Positions 8,929 to 46,886 of a stretch of 64,000 nt of DNA are shown in pieces. Numbering within the stretch: the first letter of the stretch is position 1; each line of letters starts with the position of its first letter. The notes beneath the pieces were generated by a model that did no database searches, was not told the origin of the DNA, and was given only the letters and a program-made list of their open reading frames with translations. The stretch is from the IMG/VR virus record IMGVR_UViG_3300020440_000010, positions 1-64,000 of that record, one strand, 5' to 3'. A program made the translations under genes and the position numbers. This DNA comes from a virus. Taxonomy: Duplodnaviria > Caudoviricetes.

Positions 8929-9222
8929 ATGTACAAAGTGATGATGTCAGTATTTTTAGCAGTAGGATTGTTAATTGCAGTTACGACTGGAATTGCAAAC
9001 TCAAATGAAAATACAGTATTACCAGAGAAGAAGCCTTTTACACTTGCACTTAAAAGCAAAGTGAATAGTGTCAACGATTGGTTAAACTCTAGACCAGACG
9101 CAGTGAACAACTGGGTTGAAGAAACTAAAGAGTACCAAAAGAATAGTTGGGCAGAAGGCAAAGCACAATTGATTAGAAATAAAAATTCTATCAAGTACTT
9201 TTTCTTAGGTGAAGAAAAGTAA
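8929..9222 (+). CDS. Hypothetical exported protein
   Basis: SD GGAGG; signal-peptide-like N-terminus. Confidence 0.7.
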   Translation: MYKVMMSVFLAVGLLIAVTTGIANSNENTVLPEKKPFTLALKSKVNSVNDWLNSRPDAVNNWVEETKEYQKNSWAEGKAQLIRNKNSIKYFFLGEEK

Positions 9223-10793
9223 TGCCAAAAAAAATTGTTATAGTAGGAGGCGGATCCGCAGGTTGGATGTCCGCCACTACTTTTATTAGATGTTTTCCTG
9301 ATTGGGATATAAGCCTAATCGAGTCACCTAATATTCCTATTAGTGGAGTAGGTGAAAGTACACTTCAGTCTATCAATACATGGATGAGACTGGTAAAGAT
9401 CACAGACAAAGATTTTATGAAAGCCTGTGATGCTTCATATAAATTAAGCATAAAGTTTACAAATTTTTATAAGAATGGAGATGGTGGCTTCCATTATCCA
9501 TTTAGTGATCCTGATCTCGATGGTACAAGGTTTGGATTAAATGATTGGCACATAAAAAATATTTACAAAGGTCCTTTAGCAAGAAGCGATTATGCAGATA
9601 GTTTCTTTAGTTGTATGGCCTTGGTTAATCAAAACAAGTTCGACAAAAACACTAGCCTTGGATTGCCTAACTTTAGATACGGAAAGAACACATCATTTCA
9701 TTTTGATGCTACAAAGTTTGGTATATGGTTACGAGATAATATATGCGTCCCTGAAGGAGTTAAACATATACAAAGCACAGTCAATGAAGTAATACACGGC
9801 GAACATGGTATTCAAGCACTCAAATTAGATAATAAAGATTATGTCCAAGCAGATTTGTTTATAGATTGTACAGGTTTTAGAAGTAGACTACTAGGCGGAG
9901 AAATGAAAGTGCCGTTTACAAGTTTCGAAGATTACTTACCCAATAATAGAGCATGGGCAGTGCAAGTACCATATCTAAACAAGGAAGAACAATTGAAACC
10001 TTATACAGGTTGTCATGCACTTGGTAATGGTTGGGTATGGGATATACCTTTATGGAGTAGAATAGGTAAAGGTTATGTTTACAGTGATAAGTTTACAACG
10101 CCAGAAGATGCATTGACTGAACTTAAAGAGCATTTATCGACCCTTGGATACTCTCCTGAAACATTACAATTCAAAGACATTAAGATGCGAATAGGTATGC
10201 ACGAAAAGATGTGGGAAAAGAATGTTGTTGGAATAGGATTAAGTGCAGGCTTTATTGAACCATTAGAGTCAAATGGCTTGTTCGTGACACACGAATATCT
10301 AACAGAATTAATGCGTATACTTCAACGTGAAGAACATGATGATGAAATTGTTGCTACAGAGTTTGACAAAGGAGTTTACAATTTAAGGTGTACCAAAATG
10401 TTTACAGAGTTTACACATTTTGTTATACTGCATTACGCACTGTCGGCCAGACGTGATACCCCATATTGGAAAGCATTGACACAAAAAAACTATGATTGGG
10501 AACTATTGAATCCTCATTTAACAATTAGTTCTGGTATGAGATATTTGGCTATGGATAGAATGAGTAACAATGAATATCAACCCACAGGAGGCCCTCATTG
10601 TGTTGCTACAGGTTTAAATTGGATGCCTATAGATAGAATCAGTGAAGAAATAGATATCGATAAGTTGACTTCCTTAGAAATAGATAGTATAATAAAATAC
10701 TTAGATGATAGAAAAGAACGTTGGAATAATATGGTTAAGTCCGCTAGTTCTTTGAATCAATATTTAGGAAAGACAATATATGCAGATGAATAA
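9222..10793 (+). CDS. Flavin-dependent (tryptophan-halogenase/PrnA-like) halogenase 1
   Basis: GGGSAG FAD motif, GVGEST, catalytic-Lys segment ASYKLSIKF, WVWDIP, GFIEPLES. Confidence 0.88.
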   Translation: MPKKIVIVGGGSAGWMSATTFIRCFPDWDISLIESPNIPISGVGESTLQSINTWMRLVKITDKDFMKACDASYKLSIKFTNFYKNGDGGFHYPFSDPDLDGTRFGLNDWHIKNIYKGPLARSDYADSFFSCMALVNQNKFDKNTSLGLPNFRYGKNTSFHFDATKFGIWLRDNICVPEGVKHIQSTVNEVIHGEHGIQALKLDNKDYVQADLFIDCTGFRSRLLGGEMKVPFTSFEDYLPNNRAWAVQVPYLNKEEQLKPYTGCHALGNGWVWDIPLWSRIGKGYVYSDKFTTPEDALTELKEHLSTLGYSPETLQFKDIKMRIGMHEKMWEKNVVGIGLSAGFIEPLESNGLFVTHEYLTELMRILQREEHDDEIVATEFDKGVYNLRCTKMFTEFTHFVILHYALSARRDTPYWKALTQKNYDWELLNPHLTISSGMRYLAMDRMSNNEYQPTGGPHCVATGLNWMPIDRISEEIDIDKLTSLEIDSIIKYLDDRKERWNNMVKSASSLNQYLGKTIYADE

Positions 10794-12378
10794 GAAAATT
10801 GTAATTGTAGGCGGCGGCAGTGCAGGATGGATGACTGCTACTACCTTAGTGAAATTGTTTCCTAGTATGCACGTTACACTTGTAGAAAGTCCTAATATTC
10901 CAATTGCTGGTGTTGGTGAAAGCACAATAGCAGGAATTAATGAATGGATGAAACTTGTTGGCGTTGAAGATAAAGACTTTATGAAAGAAACAGATGCTAC
11001 ATATAAATTAAGCATCAAGTTCAATAATTTTTACAAACAAAATGACGGAGGATTTCATTATCCTTTTGCTTATCCAGATACAGAAGGTTGTGTATATGGA
11101 ACCAACGACTGGCACTATAAGAAACTAAAGTATCCAGAAACTCCCAATAGCGATTATGCAAATTGTTTTAGTAGTGCTATGGCATTGGTAAATGAAAACA
11201 AATTTGATAAGAACATAGATAACAAGTTACCAAGTTACAGATATGGAATAGACACAGCCTATCACTTCGATGCTACTAAATTTGGACTATGGTTAAGAGA
11301 TAAAATTTGTATACCTGGAGGTGTTGAACACATCACAGAAGAAGTTAACAATGTTCTATATGAAAAAGGCAAAGGTGTAAAAGGTTTAGTGTTGGGCAGT
11401 AATCTTGTTGTGCAAGGAGACTTGTATATTGACTGCACAGGATTTAGATCTTTGTTGCTAGATAAAACACTTAAAGAACCTTTTGAATCGTTTGCTCATA
11501 TGCTACCTAATAATAGAGCATGGGCAACTAGAATGCCATACACAGATAAAAGAAAACAGATGGAACCATTCACAGACTGTACTGCCTATAACAATGGTTG
11601 GATATGGAATATTCCATTGTGGAGTAGAATTGGTACAGGATATGTTTACAGTGATAAACACATTACTCCTGAACAAAGTTTAAATGAATTTAAAATGTAT
11701 CTAAGTGCAAAGCATGATGTAAACGTAGATGATTTAGAGTACAGAGATATTAAAATGCGTATAGGTATGCATGATAGGATCTGGGTTGAAAATGTATGTG
11801 CTATTGGATTGAGTGCAGGATTTATAGAACCACTAGAATCAAACGGATTATACACAGTTCATATGTTCTTGGTTGCCTTTGCTAGAACATTATTAAGAAG
11901 TGAAGGTAAACAAAATCATGTAGCAAGTAGATTTGATATAGATAGTTTCAACATGATTACTAATAAAATGTTCAAAGACTTTGCAGGCTTTGTGGCCATG
12001 CACTATGCTCTTACTCAAAGAACAGACAATCAATATTGGTTAGACAACTATAATAGAAATTATGAATATGATCTACTAGATGAAAACAATCCTTTCATAC
12101 ATGAACTTAAACTGTATGGTGTTGATCGTATGAAACACATGAATCTTACAGGCAATGGTTGGCCAGATATCGCAACAGGTATGGGATACAATCCTATTGA
12201 TAGAATAAGCGAAAAGATTGTTCCTGAAATGTATGAACTTAAAGATCATCATTATGATAGAATTATCAAACATCTTGACGATAGAAAAGCACGTTGGAAA
12301 GAAATCGTAAAGCATTGTCCTACCATGTATGACTACTTAAATACTACTATATTCAAGGACGTGGACAATGACAGTTGA
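10786..12378 (+). CDS. Flavin-dependent halogenase 2, tandem paralogue
   Basis: GGGSAG, ATYKLSIKF, WIWNIP, GFIEPLES; collinear with 9222..10793. Confidence 0.88.
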   Translation: MNKKIVIVGGGSAGWMTATTLVKLFPSMHVTLVESPNIPIAGVGESTIAGINEWMKLVGVEDKDFMKETDATYKLSIKFNNFYKQNDGGFHYPFAYPDTEGCVYGTNDWHYKKLKYPETPNSDYANCFSSAMALVNENKFDKNIDNKLPSYRYGIDTAYHFDATKFGLWLRDKICIPGGVEHITEEVNNVLYEKGKGVKGLVLGSNLVVQGDLYIDCTGFRSLLLDKTLKEPFESFAHMLPNNRAWATRMPYTDKRKQMEPFTDCTAYNNGWIWNIPLWSRIGTGYVYSDKHITPEQSLNEFKMYLSAKHDVNVDDLEYRDIKMRIGMHDRIWVENVCAIGLSAGFIEPLESNGLYTVHMFLVAFARTLLRSEGKQNHVASRFDIDSFNMITNKMFKDFAGFVAMHYALTQRTDNQYWLDNYNRNYEYDLLDENNPFIHELKLYGVDRMKHMNLTGNGWPDIATGMGYNPIDRISEKIVPEMYELKDHHYDRIIKHLDDRKARWKEIVKHCPTMYDYLNTTIFKDVDNDS

Positions 12379-25367: not shown

Positions 25368-25939
25368 CAACAGCAAATAAAAGAATAGCAGTAGTTGGAG
25401 CACACGGAGTAGGTAAAAATACAGTCTGTATAAAATTGTTGCAAAGAGAAAAGTTTGGACAACGCGGGATCAATGTAACATATATGCCTGAAACTGTGAG
25501 AAGCACAATGTTTATGAATCATGATATACTTGCCAATGAAATAGGCGGCGACATCAACAGTTGTGCCTGGTTGTATCATAGACACTGGAGCCAAATGCTA
25601 GAACATGAATACAGTTGCGAAGTGTTTATTACAAAAAGATTACCATTAGACTATGTTGTATTCAACGAATGTGCATACGTAATGAAGATGTGCAAAGAAA
25701 CACTACCTTTTCAGTATTTAGAATTAGCAGTTGAACAAGCAAAACAGTTTCATGAAGTTTATTTTGTAAGACATAATCCTGATCATGATTTGATTACAGA
25801 TAGCATTAGACAGGGTCCAGCGGCTAGTGAAGAACTTCAACCTTTGTGGGACACAAACTACAAAAGAATAATAGACGAATACGAAGTTCCTGTAATTGAA
25901 GGTACAGCAGGCGAACTACTAGAAAAGATTAAAGTATGA
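25364..25939 (+). CDS. P-loop NTPase/nucleotide-kinase-like (AAA_28/NadR-like)
   Basis: Walker A VVGAHGVGKNT followed by PETVR and KRLPLDY. Confidence 0.7.
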   Translation: MTTANKRIAVVGAHGVGKNTVCIKLLQREKFGQRGINVTYMPETVRSTMFMNHDILANEIGGDINSCAWLYHRHWSQMLEHEYSCEVFITKRLPLDYVVFNECAYVMKMCKETLPFQYLELAVEQAKQFHEVYFVRHNPDHDLITDSIRQGPAASEELQPLWDTNYKRIIDEYEVPVIEGTAGELLEKIKV

Positions 25940-27228
25940 ATATAGTTATTGTTGGAGGCGGCACTGCCGGTTGGCTCACTGCTCTTTCACTACATAAGAA
26001 ACATGATGTAACCTTAATAGAAAGTGAAATACCTACAATAGGAGTAGGTGAAAGCACAACTGACACTGTCATACGTTGGCTAAAGCAACGTGTGGATATG
26101 AAAGAATTTCACACAAAAACAAATAGCACATTTAAATTAGGTGTGCAGTTTGATAATTGGGTAAACAAAAATGAAACTTACTATCATTTGTTTGGTGATG
26201 TAGAAGACAAAGTACCTAATGGAAAATTTAACCAAGTGGTAAGATACTGTTTTCAGAATGGTATAAACTTAGATAATTTAAGTATATTTGACAAATGTAA
26301 AGAAGAAGATATGACTTGGGATAGTGTTGCTACCCATTGGGACAGTGTTGCAGTACCGGCCTATCTAAGACAAAAACTAGAACACAAAATATTAATAGTA
26401 AATGATACAGTCGAAAAGGTCCATTACGAAAACGAGTCTATTACAAAACTACAATTAGTCAATAGTACTGTTGAAGCAGATTTATATATAGACTGTACAG
26501 GATTTCATAGAGTTCTAACTAAAAATACAAATAATAAATGGATTGATTGGAACGCAAAAGGTCAAGTAGATCGTGCCCTAGTATGGCAAATGCCACACAA
26601 AGATACTATACCAACTTTTACTCAAGCAGAAGCATGGGACTATGGTTGGAGATGGAAAATACCTACCACTGATCGACTGGGAAATGGTTACGTGTTTGAC
26701 AGTGACTTTATAAGTGTAGAAGATGCAGAAAAAGAAATTAGAAAAAGAGTTGATTACAAAGGTCCTGTTAGACTTATAGAATTTAATCCCGGAAGGATTG
26801 AACAAGTATATTATAAAAATATAGTAAGTTTAGGATTAAGTTCTCATTTTCTTGAACCACTTGAAGCAACAAACTTTGATTTTTTAGTATATAATTTACA
26901 AAACTTAGATCTTGTTATAGAAGACAAAATAAATGTAGAACAATTTAATAAAAATGCAAACAGACTTGCTGAATCTATTAGAGAATTTGTCAAAATGCAT
27001 TACATAAACAACACAAACAATACTGCATTTTGGAAAGCACAAAACAAAAATCTGTGCGGAAATGCTATTAGGGTTATTGAAAATGCAGAAACCACTAATA
27101 ACCTTGCACCAGGTGGATTATTTACAGATTACAATTGGTACAAAGTTGCTCAAGGTGTTGGCATAAAGAGTAAAAGCAAAAATGATGATGCTGAATTACT
27201 AGCATTATTCCAATTAGCATCCATCTAA
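25936..27228 (+). CDS. Flavin-dependent halogenase 3
   Basis: GGGTAG, GVGEST, STFKLGVQF, WRWKIP, FLEPLEA. Confidence 0.85.
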   Translation: MNIVIVGGGTAGWLTALSLHKKHDVTLIESEIPTIGVGESTTDTVIRWLKQRVDMKEFHTKTNSTFKLGVQFDNWVNKNETYYHLFGDVEDKVPNGKFNQVVRYCFQNGINLDNLSIFDKCKEEDMTWDSVATHWDSVAVPAYLRQKLEHKILIVNDTVEKVHYENESITKLQLVNSTVEADLYIDCTGFHRVLTKNTNNKWIDWNAKGQVDRALVWQMPHKDTIPTFTQAEAWDYGWRWKIPTTDRLGNGYVFDSDFISVEDAEKEIRKRVDYKGPVRLIEFNPGRIEQVYYKNIVSLGLSSHFLEPLEATNFDFLVYNLQNLDLVIEDKINVEQFNKNANRLAESIREFVKMHYINNTNNTAFWKAQNKNLCGNAIRVIENAETTNNLAPGGLFTDYNWYKVAQGVGIKSKSKNDDAELLALFQLASI

Positions 27229-28328: not shown

Positions 28329-28357
28329 ACTATAACATTTTTATTTAGTATTGTCAA
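28329..28357 (-). promoter_or_regulatory. Sigma70-like promoter TTGACA-N17-TATAGT
   Basis: Consensus -35 and 17-nt spacer. Confidence 0.75.
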
Positions 28358-28366
28358 GAGGTGAGT

Positions 28367-28386
28367 AAAGGCTCTTTCGAGCCTTT
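28367..28386 (-). terminator. Hairpin AAAGGCTC-GAAA-GAGCCTTT, probable terminator of the small-ORF operon
   Basis: Perfect 8-bp stem directly after the 28391 stop; short U tract. Confidence 0.6.
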
Positions 28387-28390
28387 ATTC

Positions 28391-28453
28391 TTATTTGGAT
28401 TTTGGTTTTGGATTAGAAAGCATTTCGTTTTCTTCATCAGTATAAGGCCACAT
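28391..28453 (-). CDS. 20-aa ORF MWPYTDEENEMLSNPKPKSK (not in ORF track)
   Basis: TAATG coupling; SD GGAGG upstream. Confidence 0.55.
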   Translation of the reverse strand: MWPYTDEENEMLSNPKPKSK

Positions 28454-28557
28454 TAGAACATTCCTCCATATTTCATTGCGTTTAGAATTAAAACAGCAAA
28501 TAAGATAGACATCATTATTGCAATTGGTAGTAAACTCTGTATAAAGGTTTTAAGCAT
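28453..28557 (-). CDS. 34-aa single-TM peptide MLKTFIQSLLPIAIMMSILFAVLILNAMKYGGMF (not in ORF track)
   Basis: Overlaps the upstream stop; AAGG SD; hydrophobic core. Confidence 0.6.
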   Translation of the reverse strand: MLKTFIQSLLPIAIMMSILFAVLILNAMKYGGMF

Positions 28558-28804
28558 GAGCCTTACCTTTCCAAGTTGCTACACGTTTACCTCTCATGTA
28601 ATGATCTCCAGGTTCATAAGAAGCCTTTTTATCGCGGTATTTTTCTAATCTAATAATTGCCGCTTTGCGAGTGTTACTTAACTTGGCTTTCTCTAGCATT
28701 AAAACTTTTGCTTGTTCATATAAACCTTGTTGTGCTAAATTGGCCGCCGCACGAGCATAACCCATTTGTGTTAAAGTATTTTTTATTCTTTGCCATATCA
28801 ACAT
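28550..28804 (-). CDS. Small hypothetical protein (..MGYARAAANLAQQGLYEQAK..)
   Basis: SD AAGGAG; part of the minus-strand operon. Confidence 0.7.
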   Translation of the reverse strand: MLIWQRIKNTLTQMGYARAAANLAQQGLYEQAKVLMLEKAKLSNTRKAAIIRLEKYRDKKASYEPGDHYMRGKRVATWKGKAHA

Positions 28805-28816
28805 TTTATCTCTCCT

Positions 28817-28999
28817 TTATCTGTAATATGCTTGTTTCTTTTGGAAGATTCCACCACCAATGTGTGATACCTTCCCGTGTTGGAGAAGTCGTTGGCGACG
28901 CTCCAAGTCAACAAGATCAACAGACTGAGACAGCCAACGTTCTTCGGGGCTGACAGTTGATTTTGCCAAAAGTTTTTTAAAGTAATTAAGAAGTCGCAT
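28817..28999 (-). CDS. DUF3563-like small protein
   Basis: EERWLSQSVDLVDLERRQR resembles DUF3563; SD GGAGG; TAATG overlap. Confidence 0.6.
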   Translation of the reverse strand: MRLLNYFKKLLAKSTVSPEERWLSQSVDLVDLERRQRLLQHGKVSHIGGGIFQKKQAYYR

Positions 29000-29202
29000 T
29001 ATGCTACCTCCTTTGTAGGCTTTGTCCAACCATTTAACTCGCTATGAGTTGGCGCCCTACCATTGTGATCTAACATGAATTGATAAGCATATTGCCAATC
29101 ATTCTTGTATTCAGTTCTGGCCCATGTGTATAGATCGTTACGAAACCTTTTACCGGCTCCGCATTTCATCCAAGACACTAGACCACTTATTAAGTGGTTC
29201 AT
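28999..29202 (-). CDS. Small hypothetical protein
   Basis: SD AGGAG; first gene after the structured leader. Confidence 0.7.
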   Translation of the reverse strand: MNHLISGLVSWMKCGAGKRFRNDLYTWARTEYKNDWQYAYQFMLDHNGRAPTHSELNGWTKPTKEVA

Positions 29203-29415
29203 TTTTTTCTCCTATGTATTGGATGCTTAAGGAAAGCAATACCCCCTGTCTTTTCAGGGCGTCAGTGGTCTTTTCCACCGTCAATGCCACTTTGGGCATC
29301 GTCAATTGCTGTTTAAGGAGTGCTCTCAACTCCCCAGTCTCTCCTGGTGTATGTGTGTGTCGTAGTTGTCAGGCCTCTACTGGAACGTAAAAGTCTTTGC
29401 ACTGCAACATTCGTA
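29203..29415 (-). ncRNA. Putative structured RNA or cis-regulatory leader with three repeated UGACG-stem-AAAG hairpins
   Basis: GC-rich island. Closing stem AGCAAU/AUUGCU (29235-29310) encloses 3 hairpins, with further hairpins upstream; promoter directly 5'. Confidence 0.6.
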
Positions 29416-29454
29416 TTTATATACTACTATAACATTTCGCCTTAAAAAGGTCAA
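29414..29454 (-). promoter_or_regulatory. Composite promoter: TTGACC-N17-TATAGT plus late-type TATAAATA
   Basis: -35 at 29449-29454, -10 at 29426-29431, TATAAATA at 29414-29421. Confidence 0.7.
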
Positions 29455-29863: not shown

Positions 29864-29941
29864 ATGGCTTGGACAAAACCAATCATTACACAAATCTGTG
29901 TTGGCTTAGAAATTAATTCTTATGCCTGTGCAGAAAAATAG
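29864..29941 (+). CDS. pqqA: PQQ precursor peptide PqqA, 25 aa (not in ORF track): MAWTKPIITQICVGLEINSYACAEK
   Basis: W-x-x-P, the ICVG(L/M)E motif and the E-x-x-x-Y core (EINSY) match alphaproteobacterial PqqA (e.g. Methylobacterium MKWAAPIVSEICVGMEVTSYES..); SD GGAG; AT-rich -10-like sequence upstream. Confidence 0.88.
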   Translation: MAWTKPIITQICVGLEINSYACAEK

Positions 29942-39059: not shown

Positions 39060-40712
39060 ATGGCAGTTGTACAAATATCAAAAATTCAACATAGACGTGG
39101 TAAAGCAGGTAGCAGTGCTATTCCGCAATTAGCAAGTGCTGAACTTGGCTGGGCAATTGATACACAAAAGTTATACATAGGTAACGGATCTGTATCAGAA
39201 GGAGCACCAGGTGTAGGCAACACAGAAATATTAACAGAAAAAAGCAATATTTTTGAATTACTATCAACATATACATACAAAGGTCCTACAGAAGTAGTAA
39301 AGCAGACAGGCGAATTTATTGCAGAACCTATCAAAAGAACACTACAACAAAGACTAGATGATATTGTAAGCATTAAGAGTTTTGGTGCTAAAGGTGATGG
39401 TACTACTGACGATACAAAAGCATTACAAAGAGCAGTGGATCAACTTTTTATAAACACAGACAAAGCAGACGAAAGAACAAGAGTTGGCTTACATATAGAT
39501 GCAGGCGAATACAAAATTACAGATACAATTTACATTCCACCATTTGCTACATTAATAGGAGATGGTAAAGGCAAAACTAAAATTAAATTATATACAAATC
39601 CAGACGACCTAAGTCCGACTGCTAGATCTATTTTACAAACTGTAGATGGTACCAGCACACCTGGAAATTATGTTAAGTATTCTAACATTCAAAATTCTAC
39701 TAGACCAAAACACATAGTGATTAGAGGAATGACTCTCGAGGTAGACAGTGCTGTCACTGTGCATAATGCAATTTTAAAAGCAGACTGCATGACTGAAAGT
39801 TTAATTGACAGTGTTGAATTTGTAAGCGACTGGGAAAAAGATGATGGATATGATGCAACAAAAAGTGGTATTGAATTTAGAGCCATTGGTGCAACAACAA
39901 GTGAAAATGTCATCATACAAAACAGTGAATTTAGAATGGTTAGTGTTGGTATCTACAGTGTCCAAGATGTTAGAACAATTACAGTTGCAGATTCTTATTT
40001 TGATTTTATGCAGGTTGGTATTGATTTAGCAAGAACTAGTACAGGAACAGGTAATCAGGCACTAGGTCCTAGACACTTTATAGTTAAGAACAATAAATTT
40101 AACAGAATTATGGATTTTGGTTTTGCAGTACACAAACCTGTAAGTACTTTAGAACCAATTGGACATATTTCTAATGCAAATATATATTTAGATGTTGGAA
40201 ACAACATGAATGGACAAGACAGTCCGCAGACAAGTGTAATTAAATTTGCAGGTCCATTGTGTGAAAGCATTGGAGATACATTTGAGAGAGAAAGTGAAAT
40301 TAATAAATCTACTTTAATTTCTGTACCTTTCAAACCTTTGGTTGATGGTTATCATTATACCAAAGGAAAAGTTAATGAATTTACTCTTTCAGAAGTAGAT
40401 GCATTAACAACTTTTTCTAAACTTCCATTTACGGATAAGAAAATTGCTTATGTTGATTACTTAATTGTTAAAACAACAGGAAGTGCTACTACTAGACAAG
40501 GTAGATTAACAATTACTATTCAAGATAACACTAATATAAACGTCACAGACAACTTTAGTCACACTGGCAGTTCAGATGGTGGTGTCGAGTTTGGTGCTGT
40601 TCTAGATGATTTAGATTCTACAGCAGGCAGTGAAACAGTGAATATTCAATACAGAAATCTTATCGGTAACGGAGTAGGCACCTTAACATACGCAATTAGT
40701 TATTTTGCTTAA
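39060..40712 (+). CDS. Virion tail/baseplate-associated protein with a pectate-lyase-3-like beta-helix
   Basis: N-terminal IQHRRG..P.LA..ELGWA.DT..LYIGNG; SIKSFGAKGDGTTDDT.ALQ.A. Confidence 0.75.
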   Translation: MAVVQISKIQHRRGKAGSSAIPQLASAELGWAIDTQKLYIGNGSVSEGAPGVGNTEILTEKSNIFELLSTYTYKGPTEVVKQTGEFIAEPIKRTLQQRLDDIVSIKSFGAKGDGTTDDTKALQRAVDQLFINTDKADERTRVGLHIDAGEYKITDTIYIPPFATLIGDGKGKTKIKLYTNPDDLSPTARSILQTVDGTSTPGNYVKYSNIQNSTRPKHIVIRGMTLEVDSAVTVHNAILKADCMTESLIDSVEFVSDWEKDDGYDATKSGIEFRAIGATTSENVIIQNSEFRMVSVGIYSVQDVRTITVADSYFDFMQVGIDLARTSTGTGNQALGPRHFIVKNNKFNRIMDFGFAVHKPVSTLEPIGHISNANIYLDVGNNMNGQDSPQTSVIKFAGPLCESIGDTFERESEINKSTLISVPFKPLVDGYHYTKGKVNEFTLSEVDALTTFSKLPFTDKKIAYVDYLIVKTTGSATTRQGRLTITIQDNTNINVTDNFSHTGSSDGGVEFGAVLDDLDSTAGSETVNIQYRNLIGNGVGTLTYAISYFA

Positions 40713-46378: not shown

Positions 46379-46453
46379 AACCCTCCTTGGTTTGTTTTGG
46401 CTAATTTTTTAGACTTTAGTTATCATTTAAATTAAAAAACACGCACTTTATGA

Positions 46454-46484
46454 TTGACATCCAAAACAAATGGTGCTATAAATA
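46454..46484 (+). promoter_or_regulatory. Composite ssrA promoter: TTGACA-N17-(TG)-TATAAA overlapping TATAAATA
   Basis: -35 at 46454-46459; extended -10 and late octamer at 46477-46484. Confidence 0.75.
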
Positions 46485-46489
46485 TAAGT

Positions 46490-46792
46490 GTAATTGTTGA
46501 CAGCATCGTATGTCACAAGAGCAGGACCCCGGGGCGGTACCGGGCAGGTCCACCATAAACACATTGTTTTTTATGGTTAGTAGTGTGTTTATGATGGGCC
46601 TGAAATAGGATCGACTGGCTTGTTAAGGGTGAAAGAGATTACCGGTAAGGTACGACCGAGCATTATATGGGGAGACTCATGCTACTGTCCAAAAACCATA
46701 AATGCAAACGATAATTTTGCATCTGAAGAGTTACGTCTAGCGGCGTAGTTCTACGGGGTTGGCAACTTACCTGGCAACAGAAAAGTTGCACT
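46490..46792 (+). ncRNA. ssrA: Circularly permuted two-piece tmRNA, alphaproteobacterial type; tag ANDNFASEELRLAA
   Basis: T-arm CCCGG-GGCGGTA-CCGGG and 3' CAGGTCC-A-CCA (ends 46555) precede the 5' end GGGCCTG (46596), giving a 7-bp acceptor stem with G3.U70; hairpin intervening segment; tag frame 46704-46748. Outer ends are approximate. Confidence 0.93.
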
Positions 46793-46886
46793 TCTAAATA
46801 CAATATTACAACAAAGCACATAGTAACGGTACAACAGGGCAATTACGCCTAAATAACAAAGAAGCAGACCGTATAGTATTATCTCA

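What the first reader, a model, noticed from the sequence alone, without database searches (positions are those of the whole stretch)
29203..29415. Structured RNA leader with three repeated UGACG-stem-AAAG hairpins in a four-way junction
Seen (minus strand): after a composite early/late promoter comes a GC-rich ~210-nt segment. It holds hairpins GUAG..CUAC (palindromic AGGCCU in the loop), CCAG-GAGAGA-CUGG and GGAGU..GAGA..ACUCC. A stem AGCAAU/AUUGCU then closes three units: UUGACG-AUGCC-CAAAGU-GGCAU, UGACG-GUGG-AAAAGA-CCAC and UGACG-CCCUG-AAAAGA-CAGGG. Stems differ in sequence while linkers and loops are kept, which is what structural conservation looks like. CUCCU in the upstream hairpin could alternatively pair with the AGGAG SD of the 29202 gene. 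Inference: a riboswitch-like or multi-site protein-binding leader or sRNA controlling five tiny ORFs. I cannot assign it to a known Rfam family.
Basis: partly seen in the sequence, partly recalled or inferred. Interest (0 to 1): 0.72.

Follow-up and report, generated by a model that had tools for sequence, protein, structure and literature searches.

The report
Hairpin-array leader RNA of marine phages
The flagged stretch is a real, conserved, folded RNA leader, absent from RNA databases, that sits between a phage promoter and an operon of tiny proteins in hundreds of uncultured marine giant T4-like phages; it probably controls how those proteins are made, though how it does so is untested.

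Summary
Observation confirmed. The stretch belongs to a large family: more than 180 IMG/VR loci and 121 distinct leaders. All are one copy per genome, downstream of a T4-type late promoter, and upstream of a new small-protein gene (motif WAKTEYxxDWxYAY). That gene is followed by a DUF1127 or DUF3563 gene.

- **Structure:** stems P1, P2, the module hairpins and P4 covary strongly (97% paired, 16 pairs with double changes, 0 of 500 shuffles).
- **Strand and coding:** abundant G-U pairs place the structure on the sense RNA strand, and the region is non-coding.
- **Variant form:** the window's three-hairpin four-way junction is one variant. The junction holds one to three hairpins in relatives and is absent in minimal forms.
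- **Constant features:** hairpins with a G-[NANAGA]-C hexaloop, a terminal hairpin with a CUUUCC-like loop, and an A-rich spacer before GGAG.
- **Databases:** no Rfam family matches, and no GenBank phage carries it.

My best reading (inferred) is a cis-acting translational leader. Its closing helix and terminal hairpin compete for AUUGCUU, and the hairpin array serves as a protein-binding platform. The closest analogue is the cuckoo/CcsR-DUF1127 (CIN1) loci, but it is not a member. This scan has already found the same family on other DNA (e1-5804043, e1-5713516 and others).

The parts
29426..29454 (-). sigma70-like promoter TTGACC-17 nt-TATAGT (early/host type)
   Evidence: 10 of 12 matches, TG before the -10. 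A similar TTGAY-17-TATAKT lies just upstream of the late box in several relatives.
29414..29421 (-). T4-type late promoter box TATAAATA; transcript start expected about 29408-29406
   Evidence: The exact box lies at the same distance in 49 of 74 distinct relatives, and one-base variants in the rest. The start site is inferred from T4 biology, not mapped.
29361..29400 (-). P0: variable 5' hairpin region. UUUAC-GUUCCA-GUAGA and, alternatively, GUAG...CUAC
   Evidence: Close relatives L013 and L049 keep NNUAC-GUUCCA-GUANN with changed stems. Other subfamilies have unrelated 5' hairpins.
29347..29360 (-). CA-rich single-stranded linker (ACACACACAUACAC); its last C is also the first base of P1
   Evidence: ACACAnAGACAC is conserved in the main type (alignment A2). 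In another subtype it is replaced by ...UGAGUGGCAC.
29334..29347 (-). P1 hairpin CCAG-GAGAGA-CUGG (hexaloop closed by G-C)
   Evidence: All four modelled pairs show double compensatory changes (helix 1). Loop variants are GAUAGA, GAAAGA and GAGAGA.
29317..29333 (-). P2 hairpin GGAGU-UGAGAGC-ACUCC, abutting P1 with no linker
   Evidence: Four of five pairs have double compensatory changes (helix 2).
29305..29310 (-). P3 5' strand AGCAAU (J2/3 linker UUAAAC lies at 29316-29311)
   Evidence: Pairs with 29240-29235. The 5' strand varies among relatives (AAGUGAU, AAGCGAU, AGCAAU, AAGCAGU) and always stays complementary through G-U or A-U. Changes are one-sided only. Lost in some subtypes.
29282..29301 (-). 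Module hairpin M1 CGAUGCC-CAAAGU-GGCAUUG
   Evidence: Five of eight pairs have double changes in the family (helix 4). A metatranscriptome contig carries C29296-G29287 changed to U-A.
29263..29280 (-). Module hairpin M2 CGGUGG-AAAAGA-CCACUG
   Evidence: Hexaloop hairpin. The metatranscriptome contig carries G29276-C29267 changed to A-U, and loop base A29274 changed to C.
29241..29262 (-). P4 hairpin AC(G)CCCUG-AAAAGA-CAGGG(G)GU
   Evidence: helix 5, three pairs with double changes. Relatives use either this type with other stems or the fixed form GCACCG-CCGGGG-AAGU-UCCGGGG.
29235..29240 (-). P3 3' strand AUUGCU (overlaps the 5' arm of Pt)
29224..29238 (-). Pt: terminal hairpin UGCUU-UCCUU-AAGCA with a pyrimidine, anti-SD-like loop
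   Evidence: Chosen by RNAalifold. Present in every subtype, with changed helices: AUGCU/AGCAU, AUGCUU/AAGCAU, GGAUG/CAUCC, GGAUGC/GUAUCC.
29200..29223 (-). UCC tail, A-rich spacer, SD AGGAG (29213-29209) and AUG (29202-29200)
28999..29202 (-). ORF1, 67 aa, new small-protein family (motif WA[KR]TEYxxDWxYAY)
   Evidence: Alignment A1. No Pfam or PHROG family. 189 clusters at 50% identity in 1.8 billion representatives. AF2 model is helical, pLDDT 73, with no PDB fold match.
28817..28999 (-). ORF2, 60 aa, DUF3563; its start overlaps the stop of ORF1 (UAAUG)
   Evidence: Pfam PF12086, E = 1.6e-6, above the curated cut-off.
28453..28804 (-). ORF3 (84 aa, with QGxYxxAKxLML and YMRGK motifs) and overlapping ORF4 (34 aa, hydrophobic)
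   Evidence: The same motifs recur downstream in relatives.

Best explanation
SHOWN. The stretch is the 5' untranslated leader (about 195-205 nt from the predicted start to the AUG) of a small-protein operon in an uncultured marine T4-like giant phage. It belongs to a conserved, uncatalogued family of sense-strand structured RNAs. The family is modular. In order it has:
- a variable 5' hairpin and a CA-rich linker;
- two abutting hairpins, P1 and P2;
- an array of one to three hairpins, mostly with a G-[NANAGA]-C hexaloop, often closed by a long-range helix P3;
- a terminal hairpin Pt that displays a CUUUCC-like loop, 8-25 nt upstream of an exposed GGAG.

INFERRED MECHANISM. The leader acts in cis on translation of the operon. 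AUUGCUU can pair either with the upstream AAGYGAU (P3, which closes the hairpin array) or with the downstream AAGCA (Pt). Unaided, Pt is slightly favoured and the RBS stays more open. A trans-acting factor binding the repeated hexaloop/AGAC hairpins would stabilise the P3-closed junction and melt Pt. That would free UUCCU to pair with AGGAG and lower initiation. The factor is most plausibly an RNA-binding protein, perhaps one of the operon's own DUF1127- or DUF3563-type products. The identity of the factor, and the direction of the effect, are not shown.
For: Family and structure:
All but six carry the whole leader.
- A protein-anchored scan that ignores the RNA sequence found a further 60 loci, nearly all with a leader.
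- Covariation on 64 distinct sequences: 97.3% of cells paired; 16 of 31 pairs have changes on both sides; 0 of 500 shuffles reach this; slid controls are 35-48% paired.
- RNAalifold independently recovers P1, P2, the module hairpin, P4 and Pt.

RNA on the sense strand:
- Conserved G-U pairs (45 of 53, 40 of 51 and 51 of 62 sequences at three positions) would be C-A mismatches on the other strand.

Non-coding:
- 86 of 119 leaders have no open sense frame in the 135 nt before the SD, and lengths vary out of frame.

Transcription:
- Late promoter box at a fixed distance.
- An 807-nt metatranscriptome contig runs from inside the leader (29334) through the ORFs. It carries two compensatory double changes in M1 and M2.

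Switch:
- The P3 5' strand has at least five variants, all complementary to the invariant AUUGCUU.
- The two states are nearly isoenergetic: ensemble ddG +1.8 +/- 2.0 kcal/mol over 50 leaders, and 0.07 in this window.
- The SD is less accessible in the P3 state in 39 of 50 leaders (0.26 against 0.39).
- Pt is complementary to the SD region over at least 5 nt in 97 of 115 leaders.

Protein platform:
- 118 of 121 leaders carry 1-4 hexaloop hairpins of the NANAGA type.
- AGAC is three-fold enriched.
- The hairpin count varies among leaders, which suits additive binding sites.
- The operon encodes DUF1127 proteins in most relatives (10 of 10 confirmed by Pfam; tally), and a DUF1127 protein is an experimentally shown RNA binder of hairpin loops (PMC8034643).
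Against: - No experiment or raw-read data bears on function. The RNA contigs cannot show ends, strand or level.
- P3 has only one-sided changes. It is lost in the single-hairpin subtype, the L002-type and the minimal subtype, and in L149/L175, so the switch cannot be universal.
- The predicted accessibility difference is modest, and the 50 sequences are related, so the P value is inflated.
- Pt-SD complementarity is only about 1 nt above a composition-matched shuffle (5.4 against 4.3). It is weak in variants with loops GUCCUC or AACCAUA.
- Hairpin type does not co-vary with whether the second gene is DUF1127 or DUF3563.
- This window's operon has no Pfam DUF1127.
- No other hexaloop hairpin lies in the 82.5-kb record, so there is no sign of a regulon.
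Confidence: 0.45

Rival explanations
1. Dual-function or processed riboregulator, a viral counterpart of CIN1 loci. The leader is cut from the mRNA (for example by RNase E) and accumulates as a stable RNA. It then acts in trans in one of two ways. Either its CUUUCC-loop hairpin pairs with Shine-Dalgarno regions of host or phage mRNAs, or its hairpin array titrates a DUF1127-type or other RNA-binding protein.
For: - In Alphaproteobacteria, cuckoo/CcsR RNAs are tandem hairpin RNAs with anti-SD loops. They are co-transcribed in the 5' or 3' UTR of DUF1127 genes, are bound by the DUF1127 protein CcaF1 and are processed by RNase E (PMC8034643).
- Here a hairpin array of variable copy number with one pyrimidine-loop hairpin precedes an operon that encodes DUF1127 in most relatives.
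- The window carries an alphaproteobacterial-type tmRNA, which hints at an alphaproteobacterial host.
- Sequence conservation of the leader exceeds what simple RBS masking needs.
Against: - No terminator or conserved AU-rich cleavage site separates the leader from the ORFs.
- The one informative RNA contig is continuous from leader into ORFs.
- Loops are purine-rich NANAGA, not CCUCCUCCC, and only one hairpin carries a pyrimidine loop.
- No Rfam ar14 or other match for any variant.
- The window's own operon has DUF3563 rather than DUF1127.
Confidence: 0.2
2. Passive structural leader. The stacked GC-rich hairpins at the 5' end merely protect the late mRNA from 5'-end-dependent decay, while the CA/A-rich unstructured segments promote ribosome loading. 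Nothing is sensed.
For: - A 5'-terminal hairpin follows the predicted start in all subtypes.
- The SD lies in an A-rich, weakly structured spacer.
- The number of hairpins is free to vary.
- Energy models favour the state with Pt and a free SD.
Against: - Protection needs no conserved loop sequences, yet hexaloop positions 2, 4, 5 and 6, the linkers UUACAAG and GGUAU, and the Pt loop are conserved while the stems drift.
- A leader of 150-200 nt is kept in a giant phage with otherwise short intergenic regions.
Confidence: 0.15
3. Small-molecule riboswitch. The hairpins with conserved loops form a ligand-dependent tertiary or loop-loop arrangement, as the two ACGR hairpins of guanidine-II do. 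This arrangement decides between P3 and Pt.
For: - Covarying stems with conserved loops and junction nucleotides.
- Two mutually exclusive, nearly isoenergetic helices next to the RBS.
- The minimal subtype reduces to two hairpins separated by GGUAU.
Against: - The architecture is not fixed: 1-5 hexaloop hairpins, P2 loops of several unrelated kinds, P3 absent in some subtypes.
- The downstream genes are small proteins of unknown role, not a metabolic or transport gene that would name a ligand.
- Loop-loop complementarity between hexaloops and Pt is barely above shuffled (5.2 against 4.3).
Confidence: 0.1
4. The stretch is not an RNA element. It is either protein-coding (the TTG frame 29329-29150) or a DNA-level signal such as repeated TGACG protein-binding sites.
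For: A stop-free TTG frame exists in this window, and TGACG recurs three times.
Against: - The frame is not kept: 86 of 119 homologues have no open sense frame, and modules of 19-22 nt are inserted or lost out of frame.
- The third repeat is already out of frame with the first two.
- Compensatory changes and strand-specific G-U pairs show selection on a folded sense strand.
- C and G of TGACG are stem pairs.
Confidence: 0.02

Closest known systems
CIN1 loci of Alphaproteobacteria: cuckoo/CcsR/NfeR RNAs (Rfam ar14, RSs0680) co-transcribed with DUF1127 genes such as ccaF1 (PMC8034643)
   Same: A tandem hairpin RNA of variable copy number lies in the UTR of a small-protein gene set that includes DUF1127. 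One hairpin displays a pyrimidine, anti-SD-like loop. In the known system the DUF1127 protein binds the hairpin loop of its own transcript.
   Different: - Loops here are NANAGA, and the single pyrimidine loop is CUUUCC(U/C), not CCUCCUCCC.
- There is no double-hairpin unit.
- No covariance-model match.
- Driven by a T4-type late promoter in a phage.
- The first gene is a new WAKTEY protein.
- This window has DUF3563 instead of DUF1127.
- Processing and binding are untested.
Translational operators and leaders of T4-type phages (gene 32 pseudoknot, gene 43 hairpin operator, RegA sites); from general knowledge
   Same: Cis-acting RNA structure next to the RBS of a T4-like phage gene, with plausible autogenous control by a protein of the same operon.
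   Different: Those operators are single short elements (a hairpin, a pseudoknot or an AU-rich site). None is a 150-200-nt modular hairpin array, and there is no sequence or structure similarity.
Guanidine-II (mini-ykkC) riboswitch; from general knowledge
   Same: Repeated hairpins whose stems vary freely while a short loop motif is invariant, placed just upstream of an RBS.
   Different: Guanidine-II loops are ACGR tetraloops closed by C-G, and there are exactly two hairpins that kiss. Here there are NANAGA hexaloops closed by G-C in 1-5 copies, with no self-complementarity and no Rfam hit.
Protein-sponge RNAs CsrB/RsmZ; from general knowledge
   Same: Arrays of hairpins with a repeated loop motif whose copy number varies between relatives.
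   Different: The defining GGA loop motif is present only across the stem-loop border of P1, not in the module hairpins. Those RNAs are free-standing genes with terminators, not mRNA leaders.
Bulk catalogue of 8,495 candidate structured RNAs from IMG/VR (Fremin, Bhatt and Kyrpides 2023, PMC10690425)
   Same: Same data source (IMG/VR intergenic regions) and the same kind of evidence (CMfinder plus R-scape). Parts of this leader may be among its unnamed DNAVirus_N entries.
   Different: The paper does not describe this element.

Membership tests
Any Rfam 15 family | Covariance-model match at or near the gathering score | tested here: not met
   In the whole window only the tmRNA passes gathering. 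At E up to 10 the region gives one spurious Flavi_CRE hit at 19 bits against a cut-off of 42. Six other variants of the leader give nothing relevant.
Cuckoo/CcsR RNAs (Rfam ar14) in CIN1 loci | CCUCCUCCC anti-SD motif in the loops of a double-hairpin unit | tested here: not met
   Loops are GAGAGA, UGAGAGC, CAAAGU, AAAAGA, AAAAGA and UCCUU. Across the family they are NANAGA plus one CUUUCC-like loop.
Cuckoo/CcsR RNAs (Rfam ar14) in CIN1 loci | Adjacent to and co-transcribed with a DUF1127 ORF | tested here: inconclusive
   Met in most relatives: 51 of 86 loci by motif, and 10 of 10 tested by Pfam. Not met in this window, whose second ORF is DUF3563.
Cuckoo/CcsR RNAs (Rfam ar14) in CIN1 loci | Processed to stable sRNAs and bound by the DUF1127 protein | not testable with these tools
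   Only assembled RNA contigs were available.
Riboswitch (generic) | Aptamer of fixed architecture with conserved junction nucleotides | tested here: not met
   Hairpin number varies from 1 to 5, P3 is absent in three subtypes, and P2 loops are of unrelated kinds.
Riboswitch (generic) | Expression platform with mutually exclusive helices next to the RBS | tested here: inconclusive
   P3 and Pt share UGCU(U) and are nearly isoenergetic, and the SD is less open in the P3 state in 39 of 50 leaders. However, P3 shows only one-sided changes.
Guanidine-II (mini-ykkC) | Two hairpins with ACGR tetraloops | tested here: not met
   No ACGR loop and no Rfam hit.
Csr/Rsm sponge RNAs | GGA in most hairpin loops | tested here: not met
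   GGA occurs only at the P1 stem-loop border and in some modules. The most frequent module loops, AAAAGA and CAAAGA, lack it.
T4-type late transcription unit | TATAAATA box a few bases upstream of the transcript start | tested here: met
   Box at 29421-29414. The exact box occurs in 49 of 74 distinct relatives and one-base variants in the others. The start site itself is not mapped.
The new leader family itself (model R1) | Match to the covariance model built from 36 relatives that excludes the window | tested here: met
   Window 29358-29200, 79.2 bits, E = 1.7e-16, and the only hit in 64 kb.

The most novel reading that the evidence does not exclude
The leader is the RNA half of a phage-borne riboregulatory module that mimics or hijacks the host's small-protein/sRNA stress circuitry. 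Its hexaloop hairpin array is a specific, multivalent binding platform for DUF1127/DUF3563-type small RNA-binding proteins, whether the phage's own or the host's CcaF1-like ones. After processing, its CUUUCC-loop hairpin acts as an anti-Shine-Dalgarno riboregulator on host mRNAs. This would make it the first viral counterpart of a CIN1/cuckoo locus and a new RNA-protein recognition motif (G-[NANAGA]-C).
Probability: 0.15. Interest if true: 0.8.

Novelty: new variant of a known kind. Interest (0 to 1): 0.6.

Why it matters
**How widespread and unannotated it is**
- The RNA family has very clean covariation and hundreds of members. It is kept as a single copy in uncultured marine giant T4-like phages.
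- One carrier is a complete 342.6-kb genome with terminal repeats.
- The window's stretch is present near-identically in marine DNA runs from at least eleven studies (fourteen runs hold every sampled word), and in marine metatranscriptome runs.
- Neither the RNA nor the first protein it precedes is in Rfam, Pfam, PHROGs or any GenBank phage, so an abundant phage function is currently invisible to annotation.

**What it connects to**
- The operon links it to DUF1127 and DUF3563 small proteins, a class only now being given functions (RNA binding, PhoR control).
- The leader offers a compact, testable system: a repeated hexaloop hairpin, a two-state platform at the RBS, and natural variants with one to five hairpins.
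- If the factor is one of the operon's proteins, this would define a new RNA-protein recognition pair.
- If the factor is a host protein, it would be a way for phages to tap host post-transcriptional control.

Tried and rejected
- **GenBank phages.** Neither blastn (distant mode) of 2.5 kb around the site and of a consensus-type leader, nor tblastn of ORF1, found a match in 50,697 records.
- **Cultured relatives.** Model R1 on the complete genomes of Pelagibacter phages Mosig and HTVC008M and of Synechococcus phage S-MbCM7 found nothing.
- **Profile-based locus search.** I replaced it with a hand-made degenerate DNA pattern.
- **Cellular genomes.** The protein pattern hit only three MAG contigs (Neomarinimicrobiota and Flavobacteriales bins). 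All three carry the leader too, so they are probably phage contigs binned by mistake.
- **Hexaloop hairpin as a general operator before other genes.**
  - It occurs nowhere else in the 82.5-kb record.
  - A fixed-spacing pattern gave no hits.
  - A variable-gap pattern gave 12 hits, all chance matches in coding sequence without stems.
I could not reproduce a link.
- **Kissing between hexaloops and the Pt loop.** The longest complementary run is 5.2 nt against 4.3 nt shuffled. A perfect 7-nt match occurs only in one subtype. This is not convincing.
- **Co-variation of hairpin type with DUF1127 or DUF3563 as the second gene.** None was found.
- **P2's CUCCU as anti-SD.** It is specific to this window's P2 version.
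- **Second copies.** There is one copy per locus and per genome.
- **Fold of ORF1.** The model is a small helical protein, pLDDT 73, with no Foldseek match in the PDB.
- **Distant WAKTEY homologues.** Those on other contigs (L208-L211) lack the leader.
- **RNA contigs.** Several stop at different places inside or after the leader, and none covers 29344-29447. Contigs cannot show ends, so nothing is concluded from this.
- **First switch calculation.** chose wrong P3 partners and was replaced.
- **Fremin et al. supplements.** They are not held as text, so prior listing could not be checked.
Full report
**1. The observation**

On the minus strand, from 29454 to 29200, the sequence reads in this order:
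- a sigma70-like promoter, TTGACC-17-TATAGT (29454-29426);
- a T4-type late box, TATAAATA (29421-29414);
- a variable 5' hairpin region;
- a CA-rich linker;
- P1, CCAG-GAGAGA-CUGG (29347-29334);
- P2, directly abutting, GGAGU-UGAGAGC-ACUCC (29333-29317);
- the linker UUAAAC;
- AGCAAU (29310-29305), which can pair with AUUGCU (29240-29235);
- three enclosed hairpins: CGAUGCC-CAAAGU-GGCAUUG, CGGUGG-AAAAGA-CCACUG and AC(G)CCCUG-AAAAGA-CAGGG(G)GU;
- UCC, an A-rich spacer, AGGAG and AUG at 29202.

The repeated 'UGACG' is really a UGA or A linker followed by the two outer stem pairs, C-G and G-U. The stretch folds better than all 200 dinucleotide shuffles (z = -4.36).

**2. It is a family**

Rfam 15 has nothing for it at gathering score or at E up to 10. 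GenBank phages have nothing similar.

All but six of them carry the whole leader. This gave 74 distinct sequences.

That sample is biased towards the 3' block. I therefore repeated the collection from the protein side, using a degenerate pattern for the motif AKTEYxxDWx[YF]A[YF] of the downstream protein.

A covariance model built from 36 relatives without the window gave these results:
- it finds the window at 79 bits (E = 1.7e-16) as the only hit in 64 kb;
- it finds one hit per locus in 95 of 99 sources and 57 of 66 sources;
- it finds one hit per genome, in four of five large records tested, including a complete 342.6-kb genome with direct terminal repeats.

The window's own record is 82.5 kb at an estimated 30% completeness. 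These are therefore giant phages. Their ribonucleotide reductase is 67-71% identical to that of pelagimyophages and cyanomyophages. The cultured ones lack the element.

**3. Structure**

On 64 distinct sequences:
- 97.3% of cells form standard pairs;
- 16 of 31 pairs show changes on both sides (259 cells);
- no shuffle of 500 reaches this;
- sliding the partners by 1-3 columns drops pairing to 35-48% (one search gives the same picture on the MAFFT alignment that was not fitted to a model).

P1, P2, the module hairpin and P4 each have three to five pairs with compensatory double changes. RNAalifold recovers the same helices, plus the terminal hairpin, without my input.

G-U pairs are conserved at several positions (45 of 53, 40 of 51 and 51 of 62 sequences). 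These would be C-A mismatches on the other strand, so selection acts on the sense-strand RNA.

The region is non-coding. 86 of 119 leaders have no open sense frame in the 135 nt before the SD, and modules come and go out of frame.

An 807-nt contig from a marine metatranscriptome spans 28534-29334, from P2 into the ORFs. It differs from the window by two compensatory double changes and one loop change:
- C29296-G29287 changed to U-A;
- G29276-C29267 changed to A-U;
- loop base A29274 changed to C, a variant also seen in the family.

A contig from an RNA library does not prove transcription, but this one is consistent with co-transcription.

**4. What is constant and what is not**

The junction closed by P3 holds one, two or three hairpins. 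The window's four-way junction is the largest common form.

Two subtypes depart further:
- The L002-type replaces P3 and GGUAUUGC with another hairpin, and has the terminal hairpin GGAUG-CUUUCCCAAAAA-CAUCC.
- A minimal subtype (L147, L172, L176, L177) has only a 5' hairpin, one GAAAGA hairpin, GGUAU and the terminal hairpin.

The constant features are:
- at least one hairpin with a hexaloop N-A-N-A-G-A closed by G-C, found in 118 of 121 leaders at 1-4 copies, with AGAC three-fold enriched;
- a terminal hairpin whose loop holds UUUCCU, UUCCC, UAUUCCUC, GUCCUC or AACCA, and whose helix changes between subtypes (UGCUU/AAGCA, AUGCU/AGCAU, AUGCUU/AAGCAU, GGAUG/CAUCC, GGAUGC/GUAUCC);
- an A-rich spacer and GGAG.

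**5. Gene context**

The first gene is a 54-74-aa protein with the motif L(T/Y)WA(K/R)TEYxxDWxYAYxxMLxHxGxxP.
- It matches no Pfam or PHROG family.
- It is absent from GenBank phages.
- Under a strict DNA pattern it is absent from 185,579 species genomes, apart from three MAG contigs that also carry the leader.
- A profile search finds 189 clusters at 50% identity. Distant members lack the leader, but one is again followed by DUF3563.
- Its AF2 model is a small helical protein without a PDB fold match.

The second gene, usually translationally coupled, is DUF1127-like in 51 of 86 distinct loci and DUF3563-like in 25. Pfam confirmed DUF1127 in 10 of 10 tested, and DUF3563 in the window at E = 1.6e-6. 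Small proteins with QGxYxxAKxLML and YMRGK motifs follow.

In the window the operon appears to run from 29202 to about 28453. The 103-aa gene further on has its own sigma70-like promoter.

**6. Mechanism (inferred)**

AUUGCUU can pair with the upstream AAGYGAU (P3) or with the downstream AAGCA (Pt). The P3 5' strand occurs in at least five versions, all complementary through G-U or A-U exchanges to the invariant 3' strand. No change on both sides exists, and some subtypes lack P3.

Constrained partition-function folding of 50 leaders gives:
- the two states within +1.8 +/- 2.0 kcal/mol of each other, and 0.07 in the window;
- a less accessible SD in the P3 state in 39 of 50 leaders (mean unpaired probability 0.26 against 0.39), because the freed UUCCU pairs with AGGAG.

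The sequences are related, so the nominal P value overstates the case. Pt-SD complementarity of at least 5 nt holds in 97 of 115 leaders but is only about 1 nt above a composition-matched shuffle.

Conserved loops on drifting stems, together with a variable hairpin count, fit additive binding sites for a protein better than a fixed ligand pocket. I therefore propose a cis-acting translational leader in which a factor bound to the hairpin array tips the P3/Pt balance.

The operon's own small proteins are candidates, because a DUF1127 protein (CcaF1) is known to bind hairpin loops of its own transcript (PMC8034643). Against that:
- hairpin type does not track the DUF1127/DUF3563 choice;
- the window has no Pfam DUF1127.

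**7. Comparison with known systems, and novelty**

The nearest known arrangement is the CIN1 locus of Alphaproteobacteria, where cuckoo/CcsR hairpin RNAs lie in the UTR of DUF1127 genes. The defining CCUCCUCCC loops and a model match are both absent here. This is an analogue, not a member.

T4 operators, guanidine-II and Csr/Rsm sponges each share one trait and fail on their defining ones; see the membership table.

A 2023 bulk catalogue of IMG/VR structured-RNA candidates (PMC10690425) may contain fragments of this element unnamed. I could not check that. No paper in the library links DUF1127, bacteriophage and marine.

This scan has already met the same family in other genomes, and the earlier follow-ups reached the same placement. 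My searches reproduce that independently. They add the modular series, the two-state calculation, the compensatory changes in the RNA contig, and the one-copy-per-complete-genome result.

Noticed in passing
window 29864-29941 (+): A 25-codon ORF, MAWTKPIITQICVGLEINSYACAEK, looks like a PqqA precursor peptide (M.W.KP start, E-x-x-x-Y core). It lies in the region divergent from the leader's promoter. It is also noted by the first stage (e1-5888998). No pqqB-E genes were looked for.
   Followed up: partly
window 46450-46839 (+): A phage-encoded permuted tmRNA of alphaproteobacterial type (Rfam alpha_tmRNA, 125 bits; ARAGORN tag ANDNFASEELRLAA). This hints at an alphaproteobacterial host.
   Followed up: partly
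window 9222-12378 and 25936-27228 (+): Three paralogous genes match Pfam Trp_halogenase (E from 1e-87 to 1e-102) in a phage genome.
   Followed up: no
window 28999-29202 (-) and relatives: A new small-protein family (motif WA[KR]TEYxxDWxYAY, 54-74 aa, helical). It has 189 clusters at 50% identity, matches no Pfam or PHROG family, is almost always followed by a DUF1127 or DUF3563 gene, and appears to be phage-only.
   Followed up: partly
L123, L125 (PBPT01, Neomarinimicrobiota MAG) and L124 (PAND01, Flavobacteriales MAG): Contigs of three GTDB MAG records carry both the phage leader and the WAKTEY gene. They are most likely phage contigs mis-binned into bacterial MAGs.
   Followed up: partly
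L188, L189 (IMG/VR): Two loci encode a WAKTEY-type protein behind an ordinary short upstream region with no leader. Distant homologues L208 and L210 also lack it. The leader is therefore restricted to a subclade of the gene family.
   Followed up: partly
window 29361-29393 (-); L013, L049: In this subfamily the 5' hairpin region reads (C/U)UAC...GUAG...CUAC, so the middle GUAG can pair with either flank. This is a second possible alternative pairing, at the very 5' end of the transcript.
   Followed up: no
window 39060-40712 (+): A 550-aa protein has an Mtd_N (major tropism determinant N-terminal) domain plus a pectate-lyase-like domain. It may be a receptor-binding protein of the kind diversified by DGRs. 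No reverse transcriptase was looked for.
   Followed up: no
window 28329-28390 (-): A strong sigma70-like promoter (TTGACA-17-TATAGT, 11 of 12) follows a 12-bp palindromic hairpin. This appears to separate the leader's operon from the 103-aa gene at 28288-27977, which ends at a clean terminator (27962-27941).
   Followed up: no
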